Assembly (NCBI GenBank): GCA_964016885.1
Contig: OZ024742.1
Span: 313,720,001 to 313,784,000 of the forward strand
DNA length: 64,000 bases
Direction of reading: 5' to 3'
DNA from: Eledone cirrhosa
Taxonomy: Eukaryota
Shown here piece by piece: positions 7,165-61,184 of the stretch (position 1 is its first letter; each line of letters begins with the position of its first letter). The notes beneath the pieces are model-generated. The model worked only from the letters and a program-made list of their open reading frames with translations, had not been told where the DNA came from and ran no database searches. The position numbers and the translations under genes are program-made.

Positions 7165-7414
7165 TTGTTGTTAGCCCCAATGTAGTTAAGTTCTACTTAC
7201 TATTGTCATGTTTTATTAAAGTAGATAACTTTATTTACCCTTCAAACTTTACCTATCTTTCTAGGTCTTGGTAACAAGAAGTTCCCATCTTTGTTGTTAG
7301 CCTTGCATAGTTAGGTTCTACTTAATATTGTCATGTTTTACTCAAGTAGATAATTTTATTTACCCTTCAAACATTACCTATCTTTCTAGGTCTTGGTAAC
7401 AAGAAGTTTCCATT
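7165..7414 (+). repeat. 125-bp tandem duplication containing the 3' splice site and exon start
   Basis: TACCTATCTTTCTAG|GTCTTGGTAACAAGAAGTT occurs with AG at 7263-7264 and again at 7388-7389. Confidence 0.92.
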
Positions 7415-7559
7415 TCATCTACTTGTCATACATGGTTCCATAAAAATTAATTATACCAGTGAATTCAAACGAGAACATTTTTTGTCTTGGATGAAGAATG
7501 ACCCTAGTGGAGCTGTTGAAGGAATTGTCTGGCATTGTAATGATGGAGCATTATTTAAG
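7390..7559 (+). CDS. RLIG1: Internal exon of a C12orf29/RLIG1-like RNA ligase
   Basis: Bounded by ctag| and AAG|gtaagt. Reads (G)LGNKKFPFHLLVIHGSIKINYTSEFKREHFLSWMKNDPSGAVEGIVWHCNDGALFK, matching the GLGxKKxPxHLLxxHG and EGIVWHCxDG motifs recalled for vertebrate C12orf29. Confidence 0.88.
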
Positions 7560-7929
7560 GTAAGTAAACTTAACAAATCTTATATCTGATAATTTATTTT
7601 TTGAAACTTTTGTTACCATATGTGAAGGTGTGTAGCCTGGTGGTTAATGTGTTGGACTCATGGTCATCTGGTCATGGGTTCAATTCCTAGACCAAGTGAC
7701 ACATTGTGTTCTTGATATTAAAATTTGATTCTAATATCTGAAAGTTGCTTTATATATATATAGCTGGTATCTGAAAGATATGGGGTTCAATTCATCATAG
7801 TGGCCAATGGCAACTTCTTTTTCCATCTTTTAAAGGTGTTCACTTTATTTTATAAGCTATCTTTATAGCATTTCTGTGTTTGAGCACTTTCTTTATACTT
7901 ATATATATATATACATAAATATATATATA

Positions 7930-8295
7930 TAGAATAAGAAAATGCGAAGTAGTTTCAGATATTAAAGTCCTTTAATATTAATGCTGTGGTACATATTTCA
8001 ATGATGACAGTGGCCACACGCTTCGGTGTACCCAGTGATTATTACATAATAGGGTTATTTGCCTCGGGGAAAATAACCCTATTATGTAAGAAGCAGTCTG
8101 ATGATATCACGGCACTGGGTACGCCGAAGCGTGTGGCCACTGTCGTCATTGAAATATGTACCACAGCATTAACATTAGAGGACTTTAACATCTGAAACTA
8201 CCTTGCATTTTCTTATTCTAAATATACTCCGTCACTCCTATGTGGAAAAGTACGTTGAGTGCTTGAATTGAATTGCATGAATGTTTACCATAAGT
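7930..8295 (+). mobile_element. PLE-like 3' fragment with inverted 5' arm (palindrome 7930-8220) in (TA)n
   Basis: Inverted arms of ~105 bp, an inner 19-bp hairpin, a degenerate hammerhead at 8094-8151, and TA flanks. Confidence 0.65.
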
Positions 8296-8421
8296 ATATA
8301 TATATATATATATATATATATATATATATATATATATATATTAAAATGTACCACTAGAGCTGATTCAAATTTTCCCAGCCAGCCATCCACCTAATCTACG
8401 AAGGTATTTTAGCCTACATAT

Positions 8422-8750
8422 TGTCGTTAATATTATGATGTTCCCTGCTGTATTAGCGTTAAATTTTCCCTGCTGTATTAGCGATAAATTTTCGAGGGTT
8501 TCTCTTAGTAGCTTTTTCATGTCGTTAATATTATGATGTTCCCTGCTGTATTAGCGTTAAATTTTCCCTGCTGTATTAGCGATAAATTTTCGAGGGTTTC
8601 TCTTAGTAGCTTTTTCATGTCGTTAATATTATGATGTTCCCTGCTGTATTAGCGTTAAATTTTCCCTGCTGTTATTAGCGTTAAATTTTCCCTGCTGTAT
8701 TAGCGATAAATTTTCGAGGGTTTCTCTTAGTAGCTTTTTTCATGACGTTA
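8422..8750 (+). repeat. Three 98-bp tandem monomers with an internal 25-bp subrepeat in the putative RTE 5' UTR
   Basis: Units start at 8422, 8520 and 8618; subrepeat TTCCCTGCTGTATTAGCG(T/A)TAAATT. Confidence 0.92.
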
Positions 8751-9058
8751 TTATTGTTAATTTTACTGATGTAGTATTAACTTGGATATTTACCATGCGA
8801 CCCTCAGTTCCTACCTCACAATTTCCCTCCCCCCCACCCCCACACACCACCATAGTCTATTCGACCAATCAAACCTAGCATGCCATTTCCACTGCTGCTG
8901 CTGCTACTACCTGCCTAACTAACTCTCTCCTCCTCTGGCGCATCCCAACACACCCTGCCATTACCCCACCACCACTGTCCTTCTAGCCCTCAATTTTCCC
9001 ACCGTTAGGGATGGATGAGCTGGGAATACACGAGCAACTCTGAATCAATAGATGAAAT

Positions 9059-58712: not shown

Positions 58713-59031
58713 TCATCATCATCATCATCTCATTTTACGTCCACTTTTCCCTGCTTGCAAGGGTGGGACGGGAACTGATTCTGGCTTGATTTCTACAGCT
58801 GGATGCCCTTCCTAACACCAACCTCATTTACAGTGAGTGCTGGGTGCTTTTTTGCCGTGGCACCTCCACGACCACTTTACAGTGGAATGATAGGGACCCC
58901 AGTCCCTATCATCTCATTTCTACAGCTGAGTAAACTGGAGCAATGTGAAATAAAGTGCCTTGCTCAAGGAAACAACACATCACCCGGTCTGAGAATTGAA
59001 CTCACAACCTTTTGATTGCAAGGCCAATGCT
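58713..59031 (-). mobile_element. SINE family C, slightly 5'-truncated
   Basis: Reverse complement of 12825-13141. Confidence 0.9.
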
Positions 59032-59236
59032 CATATATACATATATATATATATATGTATATATATATATATATATATATATATATATATGTATACATGT
59101 ATATATATATATATATATATATATGTATACATGTATATATATATATATATATATATGTGTATATATATATATATATATGTATATATATATATATATATAT
59201 ATATATGTATACATGTATATATATATATATATATAT

Positions 59237-59433
59237 ATAGGAACCAGTAAGACCCCGACAGCTGAGCTCAAGCCGTTTCGACGGCTAATTCAGTCCAGAA
59301 TTAACTGTCGAAACGGCTTGAGCTCAGCTGTCGGGGTCTTACTGGTTCCTATTACCCACTCTACTACCTCAAGTATTGTTGTACTTTGGTGCGTTATGGT
59401 CCACCTGGTTCCTTACCACATTTCCTTCGTTAT
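59237..59433 (+). mobile_element. Naiad pLTR end with 55-bp fold-back (59237-59291 / 59298-59352)
   Basis: Right part matches 54924-55064; left part is its reverse complement; loop AGTCCA. Confidence 0.92.
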
Positions 59434-59964
59434 ATATATATATATATATATATATATATGCTATGTATACATATATATATATATATATATGCTATGTATA
59501 CATACATATATATGTATATATATGGTATGTATACATACATATGTATGTATATATATATCTACATACGTATGTATACATGTATATATGTATGTATATATAT
59601 ATCTACATACGTATGTATACATGTATATATATATATATCTACATACGTATGTATACATGTATATATATATATGTATATATTTATATGCTATGTATACATA
59701 CATATATATATATATATATATATATATATATATATATATATATATATATATATATATATATATATGGTATGTATACATATATATGTATGTATTTATATAT
59801 ATACATATGTATATTTACATATACATATTCATATATATATGGTATGTATACATACATATGTATGTATTTATATACATACGTATGTATATTTACATATACA
59901 TATTCATATATATATGGTATGCATACTATGTATGTATATATACATACATATTCATGAGATTTGC

Positions 59965-60262
59965 ACTTAGAAAGTTTCCCTTCTGAGCCACAATCCTGGG
60001 CAAAGTGTTTTTGTAGAAGACTAGGAGTCACTCATGCATACCATTCTCCCCTCTCCATGCAATCGATGTTGTCCAATGAAAAGGCAATGGCCAATACAGC
60101 TTGACACCAGTGATGTCACAACTCATTTTTACAGCTGAGTGAATTAGAGCAATGCGAAATAAGTGTCTTGCTCAAGACCGCAACACATGCCCAAGTCCAG
60201 GAATCAAACTCACAACCCACAATTGTGATTCCAATGCTAAAACCATTAGGCCACATGCCTTT
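59965..60262 (-). mobile_element. Older CORE-like SINE with a different tail
   Basis: Shares ACAGCTGAGTGAA..GAGCAATG..TGCTCAAG core and tRNA-like head. Confidence 0.65.
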
Positions 60263-60980
60263 ATCTTCTATTAGATTCAATTGTTATTAAAAAGGTATTC
60301 AAACTGGAATTTTGCTATATCTATTTTTGCATGTTTAACCCTTTAGCATTTAAACCGGCCATATCTGGCCAAAATTCTCTCACCTCTTATTGTTCAAACT
60401 GGCTATAACATTACGGTAGTGTTCTTAAAATAAATAACATCATAATCTCCTAGATTTGATATTATGTGAGATAATTATGAAAGATAAAGCCTTTACTGTG
60501 AAAATACAAAAGTAGAGTTATGTAAATGATATAGAGTTATGTAAATGATATAGGATTAAGTAGAGCTCTTATGGTTTAGTTTCGGAGTGAATTTCTCTAT
60601 AAAACATTTCTCCATTTCTAGTCAGTACTTTGGATCATTCCTTGAACATTTATAAAAAGGGAATATTTTGAATTTGTTGTTCCTACAAATTTCTAAATGT
60701 TATCATAGTGGGATTTTTCTCTTGGCTCTGGTTTTTATATCTGTTGTTTGTATACCTTGACTTGTTCACACAAAGGATTACTGGTCTCACCAATATAATT
60801 CTCTTTACAGCTGAGACCGACAATACAATGTATCAGATTTTCTGGTTTTTAATTTATTAAAGGATTATCTCAGAACCAGTAGAAACAATATTTCATAAAA
60901 ATTTTAATGGATATATTATTGAGAAGTGGAAAAAGCATTGCATTGCCTTTCGCCCATTTTTATTTTTTTTTGTTTTTCAG

Positions 60981-61184
60981 CTTCACCGGTTTCATCTGTG
61001 CACTTCACTTCCATGGCCTGTACCAAAACCAACATTATCAAATTTAAGACCTGTTACCATCAATCTCAATGTTGAGCTTTTGGATGAGACTGACCGAGAA
61101 AACAGCACACTGCATCAGCTTTTGGATTACAATGGACATAATTTTAGTTCACTGGCAGAATTGAACTCTACTCTGTTCACATGA
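60981..61184 (+). CDS. RLIG1: Terminal coding exon of the C12orf29/RLIG1-like RNA ligase
   Basis: Strong acceptor, then LHRFHLCTSLPWPVPKPTLSNLRPVTINLNVELLDETDRENSTLHQLLDYNGHNFSSLAELNSTLFT*. Matches the recalled HRxHL..WP.P....RPV.IN motif. Confidence 0.85.
   Translation, partial: LHRFHLCTSLPWPVPKPTLSNLRPVTINLNVELLDETDRENSTLHQLLDYNGHNFSSLAELNSTLFT

What the first reader, a model, noticed from the sequence alone, without database searches (positions are those of the whole stretch)
7390..61184. Hidden host gene: RLIG1/C12orf29-like RNA ligase exons 53 kb apart
Seen: two exons absent from the ORF track have canonical splice sites and join in phase 0 to give EGIVWHCNDGALFK|LHRFHL..WPVP. Known: C12orf29/RLIG1 is an ATP-dependent 5'-3' RNA ligase, and EGxV with a downstream Lys correspond to nucleotidyltransferase motifs IV and V. 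Inference: only 374 coding bp lie in this 64 kb, and everything between them is transcribed as intron, which gives the ribozymes and hairpins below a context.
Basis: partly seen in the sequence, partly recalled or inferred. Interest (0 to 1): 0.7.

Follow-up and report, generated by a model that had tools for sequence, protein, structure and literature searches.

The report
Octopus RNA ligase gene's last exons
These two short stretches are the last two coding exons of an intact octopus gene for RLIG1, a likely RNA-repair enzyme already known from humans and molluscs, separated by one 53-kb intron rich in jumping genes, so the finding is real but ordinary.

Summary
Confirmed, and ordinary. Window 7390-7559 and 60981-61184 are coding exons 6 and 7 of the RLIG1/C12orf29 gene. 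They match adjacent parts of Pfam RLIG1 (208-263 and 264-323 of 324). Five more coding exons lie 73-112 kb upstream, in order, on the same strand. The seven give 329 aa without stops, 271/329 identical to the annotated Octopus bimaculoides homologue. All seven active-site residues named in two papers are present. One public contig covers only exon 6 and continues into exon 5 and exon 7 sequence, so both junctions exist in spliced form; its library type is not on record. The 53,421-nt intron is repeat-rich and holds a Penelope-like element with two sense-strand hammerhead-like motifs (untested; Rfam calls none). These probably have no link to the ligase, whose human form does not join the ends hammerheads leave. 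'374 coding bp' holds for the host gene only; retroelement ORFs add about 11.6 kb. Cephalopod orthologues are already mentioned in print (PMC9931718). One earlier scan note was returned nearby; it concerns a retrotransposon array, not this gene.

The parts
1..7389 (+). Last 7.4 kb of the 80,587-nt intron between coding exons 5 and 6 (exons 1-5 lie outside the window, G000:C3:313607672-313646802)
   Evidence: the exon 5->6 junction is seen in the X4 contig
7201..7288 (+). Upstream copy of a 125-bp-period tandem duplication; repeats the acceptor (AG at 7263-7264) and the first 24 nt of exon 6. Its use would add 125 nt and hit a stop after 15 codons
   Evidence: both copies are covered by contigs of X1-X3, one sample; the X4 contig uses 7390
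7390..7559 (+). RLIG1 coding exon 6 (170 nt, phase 1 in, phase 0 out): motif IIIa His220 (7431-7433), motif IV Glu249 (7518-7520), motif V Lys262 (7557-7559, last codon)
7560..60980 (+). Intron 6, 53,421 nt, GT-AG, phase 0; 54% of its bases have a second copy or self-similarity within the window
   Evidence: the length rests on the assembly
60981..61184 (+). RLIG1 coding exon 7, 67 codons plus TGA
61185..61280 (+). Start of the 3' UTR; inferred end of the X4 contig if it runs collinearly; first ATTAAA at 61742, first AATAAA at 62013
   Evidence: arithmetic. The true 3' end was not determined
53976..58617 (+). Penelope-like element inside intron 6: 1.1-kb direct repeats (53976-55064, 57512-58617; 97.6%) around a 698-aa ORF (55212-57308)
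   Evidence: RT and GIY-YIG-like motifs read by eye; Pfam gives only RVT_1 E 0.096 on a part and nothing on the whole
54875..54970 (+). Type I hammerhead-like motif with U3-A8 core, GUC site and palindromic loop III, sense to the pre-mRNA
   Evidence: not called by Rfam; cleavage untested
58428..58523 (+). Identical second copy of the hammerhead-like motif in the downstream repeat
20231..20285 (+). Small type I hammerhead-like motif (GUU site) of a dispersed repeat; an inverted, more decayed copy lies at about 19821-19875 on the minus strand
9056..12178 (+). LINE-type ORF (endonuclease, RT, PHD finger) in intron 6; related pieces at 16077-17054 and 51177-53450

Best explanation
The two segments are coding exons 6 and 7 of an intact, spliced RLIG1 (C12orf29) gene of an octopus-like animal, joined across one 53,421-nt GT-AG intron, and the 329-aa product likely works as an ATP-dependent 5'-3' RNA ligase. 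Shown: exon structure, open frame, family, active-site residues, spliced junctions in one contig. Inferred from the human and Yasminevirus enzymes: Lys57 takes AMP from ATP, AMP passes to an RNA 5'-phosphate, and a 3'-OH attacks to seal the break; Glu249 and Lys262 of exon 6 would help hold metal and nucleotide. The likely role is cytoplasmic repair of broken tRNA or rRNA. The intron most likely grew by transposon and microsatellite insertion, and its hammerhead-like motifs are likely passengers of those elements.
For: Pfam RLIG1 abutting hits. Seven collinear same-strand matches on one contig covering profile 1-322. All six introns GT-AG with compatible phases; 990 nt, no internal stop, 271/329 identity and no gap against P0003. 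K57, D59, R77, E194, H220, E249, K262 are each invariant in 120 of 120 aligned homologues (the best 120 of 429 hits) and present here; the model matches 92 of 93 columns conserved at 90% or more. P0003 hits solved RLIG1 structures 9c6l/9c6m at E 1e-9. Both junctions of exon 6 lie in the X4 contig. Mechanism: 10.1101/2024.04.24.590974 (parts 1-3 of 4 read), PMC9931718 (passages), PMC11494293 (passages).
Against: No activity was tested, and a search for C12orf29 with octopus gave 0 papers. The junction evidence is one assembled contig from one study, library type not on record; no raw reads. Intron length rests on the assembly; only 7100-7610 was checked against other runs. Orthology rests on similarity and a single strong locus; no tree was built. 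No structure was predicted.
Confidence: 0.95

Rival explanations
1. Same gene, but intron 6 and the decoy acceptor regulate it: sense-strand hammerheads would cut part of the nascent RNA before exon 7 is made, and use of the 7265 acceptor would send some transcripts to decay.
For: Two hammerhead-like motifs with all core positions and three stems in the minimum-energy fold lie on the sense strand 2.5 and 6 kb before exon 7. The decoy acceptor differs from the used one at 2 of 40 upstream bases.
Against: The motif belongs to a dispersed element: 5 of 10 loci scanned hold the full motif, one being this window. Folding z-scores are 0.04 and -0.11. Metazoan Penelope hammerheads cleave poorly in vitro (PMC4209133, passages). 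Human RLIG1 did not join 2',3'-cyclic phosphate/5'-OH ends and is mainly cytoplasmic. The spliced contig uses 7390 and no joint at 7265 was listed, though contigs drop rare forms.
Confidence: 0.07
2. The locus is a decaying copy, and the spliced contig comes from an intronless second copy in DNA.
For: The kind of run X4 is not on record. One weak intronless match to profile 151-220 lies on contig C5 (E 0.15 genome-wide; 24.4 bits against at most 3.5 in 500 shuffles).
Against: No stop or frameshift in 990 nt. The exon 6 peptide finds one match in the genome. The X4 contig has no other letter over 7389-7559, while the C5 stretch is 38% identical over 42 aa, with no convincing match to other parts of the protein nearby.
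Confidence: 0.02
3. The exons are real but the 53-kb distance is inflated by a misassembly in repeats.
For: The intron is 54% self-similar and holds a 1.7-kb AT microsatellite. It is about ten times the mean intron of Octopus minor, 5.4 kb (PMC6279123, passages).
Against: All seven exons are in order and on one strand of a 379-Mb contig; the window has no N; the gene has two other long introns, 29.8 and 80.6 kb.
Confidence: 0.05

Closest known systems
Octopus bimaculoides 'uncharacterized protein C12orf29 homolog' (P0003, NCBI name as given)
   Same: 329 aa, 271 identical, no gaps, all active-site residues
   Different: 18% of residues; its intron sizes were not available to compare
Human RLIG1/C12orf29 (PMC9931718; PMC11494293), Pfam PF17720
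   Same: Family, length (325 aa vs 329), K57, D59, R77, E195, E250, K263 matched by K57, D59, R77, E194, E249, K262; mammalian homologues P0053 and P0026 are 48% and 47% identical
   Different: A 2-residue insertion after motif V shared only with P0003-P0006 among 120 homologues; activity untested; the human sequence itself was not aligned, numbering comes from the papers
Yasminevirus RLIG1 structures 9c6l and 9c6m
   Same: Motifs I, III, IIIa, IV and V align with P0003
   Different: 277 aa viral protein; lacks the segment equal to human 81-111
Hammerhead motifs in the repeats of Penelope-like elements (PMC4209133; PMC8557442)
   Same: Position in both direct repeats, long helix II, short helix I, palindromic loop III; the U3-A8 core is described for a Schistosoma element
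   Different: Here helix III is longer (about 5 bp); not tested for cleavage

Membership tests
RLIG1/C12orf29 (PF17720) | Profile match over the full length | tested here: met
   Seven matches cover profile 1-322 of 324; six are over the cut-off on their own, the last exon is not
RLIG1/C12orf29 (PF17720) | Motif I KxDG with the adenylated lysine | tested here: met
   K57 and D59 in coding exon 1
RLIG1/C12orf29 (PF17720) | Motifs Ia (Arg), III (Glu), IIIa (His) | tested here: met
   R77, E194, H220, each 120/120 in homologues; motif names from PMC11494293
RLIG1/C12orf29 (PF17720) | Motif IV Glu and motif V Lys | tested here: met
   E249 at 7518-7520 and K262 at 7557-7559
RLIG1/C12orf29 (PF17720) | Intact single-domain frame of about 325 aa, spliced | tested here: met
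   329 aa, no stop; two of six junctions seen in a contig
RLIG1/C12orf29 (PF17720) | ATP-grasp nucleotidyltransferase fold | not tested
   No model was built; only the sequence hit of P0003 to 9c6l
RLIG1/C12orf29 (PF17720) | Self-adenylation and joining of 5'-phosphate to 3'-OH RNA | not testable with these tools
   Needs a bench assay
Penelope-like element (53976-58617) | Direct repeats around one ORF | tested here: met
Penelope-like element (53976-58617) | RT followed by GIY-YIG endonuclease | tested here: inconclusive
   Motifs read by eye from recall; Pfam RVT_1 E 0.096, no GIY-YIG hit
Hammerhead ribozyme (54875-54970, 58428-58523) | Core residues with 3-8 pairing and three helices | tested here: met
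   Pattern and fold; U3-A8 variant described in PMC4209133
Hammerhead ribozyme (54875-54970, 58428-58523) | Match to an Rfam hammerhead model | tested here: not met
   None at gathering score; none among the 150 listed of 397 E-value hits, 247 not shown
Hammerhead ribozyme (54875-54970, 58428-58523) | Self-cleavage | not testable with these tools
   Needs an in vitro cleavage assay

The most novel reading that the evidence does not exclude
A recent Penelope-like insertion put two sense-strand hammerhead ribozymes into the last intron of the octopus RNA ligase gene, and a tandem duplication added a decoy acceptor; together they set how much intact ligase mRNA is made, so that self-cutting RNA tunes an RNA-repair enzyme.
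Probability: 0.05. Interest if true: 0.55.

Novelty: new member of a known kind. Interest (0 to 1): 0.12.

Why it matters
Little beyond annotation. It gives a checked seven-exon model of RLIG1 for this genome and shows that about 61 of the window's 64 kb lie inside this gene, so other findings there are intronic and their strand can be read against the transcript. The cellular job of RLIG1 is still open (tRNA and rRNA repair are proposed), and a cephalopod enzyme at 47-48% identity to mammalian ones could serve as a comparison, but this finding does not make that question easier to test.

Tried and rejected
PDB sequence searches with each exon peptide alone gave only chance hits; the full-length relative P0003 was needed. 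No RNA holder was listed by the run search; this is no evidence either way. Rfam found one tRNA-like hit and no ribozyme; the E-value list was filled by microRNA models on AT repeats. My first hammerhead scan was too strict and found nothing; a looser one found the small motifs but missed the U3-A8 pair, which I then read by eye. The repeat finder was swamped by the AT microsatellite. Recursive splice sites: 3 YAG|GTRAG matches in intron 6, none with a pyrimidine tract; rejected. The C5 match as a retrocopy: rejected as weak and partial; another frame there looks like a mariner transposase from recall, but Pfam gave 0 families on the 63-aa piece tested, so this stays unproven. The 10 kb upstream of coding exon 1 held no RLIG1 match, and the non-coding first exon was not located. 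Searches for papers on ribozyme-cut introns and for cephalopod RLIG1 with loose terms gave nothing usable. No covariation test was run on the hammerhead-like motifs: the copies are one repeat family, alike by descent.

Full report
Observation. 7390-7559 (170 nt) lies between a pyrimidine tract with AG and a GTAAGT donor; 60981-61184 (204 nt, ending in TGA) follows a T-rich tract with CAG. They encode 56 and 67 residues. Scanned separately, they hit Pfam PF17720 RLIG1 at profile positions 208-263 (E 1.1e-17) and 264-323 (E 2.8e-5) of 324, so they abut exactly where the phase-0 junction falls. The exon 6 peptide's only database hit among longer proteins (1 of 2 candidates) is the Octopus bimaculoides C12orf29 homologue, P0003.

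The whole gene. A family search of the own genome gave 8 matches: seven in order on the plus strand of contig C3 and one weak match on C5. With P0003 as guide, the seven coding exons measure 208, 131, 85, 88, 104, 170 and 204 nt, and the introns 29,766, 4,300, 506, 3,943, 80,587 and 53,421 nt, all GT-AG with compatible phases. The 990 nt give 329 aa with no internal stop, 271/329 identical to P0003 with no gap; the coding span is 173,513 nt. Identity is 78% to the Argonauta protein and 47-48% to two mammalian ones, so the genome is inferred to be an octopus's. An acceptor lies 14 nt before the start codon, so a non-coding first exon is likely; I did not find it.

Splicing. The run search listed four holders from one study, none on record as RNA. 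Laid on 7100-7610, X1-X3 (one sample) cover intron and exon alike, as DNA would. X4 gives one 1,410-nt contig that fits only 7389-7559, with no other letter; its loose ends are the last 30 letters of exon 5 and the first 30 of exon 7. This is the spliced form, and both junctions are as predicted. It is one contig, not raw reads, and its library is unknown; RNA is the simplest source because the exon 6 peptide has one match in the genome.

Active site. Human K57, D59, E195, E250 and K263 are needed for ligation and R77L keeps about 12% (PMC9931718, passages). The PNAS paper names the viral residues Lys73/Asp75 motif I, Arg89 Ia, Glu174 III, His195 IIIa, Glu240 IV and Lys253 V (PMC11494293, passages). 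Here they are K57, D59, R77, E194, H220, E249 and K262. Each is invariant in the 120 homologues aligned (the best 120 of 429). The model departs from only 1 of 93 well-conserved columns (I188 for L). Exon 6 carries motifs IIIa, IV and the motif V lysine as its last codon. The alignment figures for the viral motifs are in a supplement that I did not read.

How it likely works. By inference from the human and viral enzymes (10.1101/2024.04.24.590974, parts 1-3 of 4): AMP is bound to Lys57, passed to an RNA 5'-phosphate, and displaced by a 3'-OH. The human enzyme does not seal nicked DNA, 2'-phosphate ends or cyclic-phosphate/5'-OH ends, is mostly cytoplasmic, and binds tRNA. Abstract starts in the search listing add 28S rRNA integrity under oxidative stress and neural effects in zebrafish. 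Nothing was tested for the octopus protein.

The intron. 54% of intron 6 is self-similar within the window. It holds LINE-type ORFs with endonuclease, RT and PHD hits, long AT microsatellites and a Penelope-like element at 53976-58617. So '374 coding bp' is true of the host gene only. The intron is about ten times the Octopus minor mean of 5.4 kb (PMC6279123, passages), but this gene has a longer one, and enlarged introns are reported for octopus in that paper.

The ribozyme context. Rfam calls no ribozyme. By pattern and folding, each repeat of the Penelope-like element holds a type I hammerhead-like motif on the sense strand (54875-54970, 58428-58523) with a U3-A8 core. Hammerheads in Penelope repeats and this core variant are described (PMC4209133 and PMC8557442, passages). 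A second, smaller motif occurs at 20231-20285 (+) and inverted at about 19821-19875; its pattern has 27 genome matches against 0 for the control, and 16 of 25 fetched loci keep the cleavage triplet and helix I strand. Folding z-scores are not significant. Hammerheads leave cyclic-phosphate and 5'-OH ends (established knowledge, recalled), which human RLIG1 did not join. I read these motifs as passengers.

Decoy acceptor. A 125-bp-period duplication repeats the exon 6 acceptor at 7263-7264. Contigs of X1-X3 cover both copies. Its use would shift the frame and stop after 15 codons. The one spliced contig uses 7390.

What is known. C12orf29 orthologues in gastropods, bivalves and cephalopods are noted in PMC9931718, and octopus and argonaut proteins are already annotated. 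A search for C12orf29 with octopus gave 0 papers; searches for C12orf29 with RNA ligase (22 papers, 16 listed) and RLIG1 (19, 16 listed) listed no cephalopod title. The earlier scan note near this place concerns a Tx1-like array at 1-2000.

Verdict. Real, correctly read, ordinary: an intact RLIG1 gene with long introns. Interest 0.12.

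Noticed in passing
window 53976-58617: Penelope-like element with an unbroken 698-aa ORF and 97.6% identical repeats, each with a U3-A8 hammerhead-like motif; identical motif copies lie on other contigs, so the family looks young.
   Followed up: partly
window 19690-20330: Inverted pair of a dispersed repeat, each arm with a small hammerhead-like motif; 27 genome matches to the core pattern.
   Followed up: partly
window 7201-7413: Tandem duplication of the exon 6 acceptor; how the downstream site wins over a near-identical upstream one is unexplained.
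   Followed up: partly
L002 1489-1503 (G000:C3, start of coding exon 1): A three-codon upstream ORF whose stop overlaps the RLIG1 start codon.
   Followed up: no
window 20377-20800: Long near-perfect inverted repeat; 20535-20680 folds at z -10.2, and the arms run further out. Probably a small DNA transposon; not tested.
   Followed up: no
window 9056-12178, 16077-17054, 51177-53450: LINE-type ORFs with a PHD finger right after the RT domain; the copies are 75-77% alike in DNA.
   Followed up: no
window 12812-12869: Partial tRNA match (34.8 bits), likely the head of a tRNA-derived SINE.
   Followed up: no
L009 1501-1713 (G000:C5:112488969-112489181): Weak intronless match to RLIG1 profile 151-220, above 500 shuffles but E 0.15 genome-wide; origin unresolved.
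   Followed up: partly
window 60981-61010: A 2-residue insertion after motif V shared only with P0003-P0006 among 120 homologues.
   Followed up: no
window 1-4100: Minus-strand RT ORFs between GATA/GACA-type repeats, in intron 5 and antisense to RLIG1.
   Followed up: no
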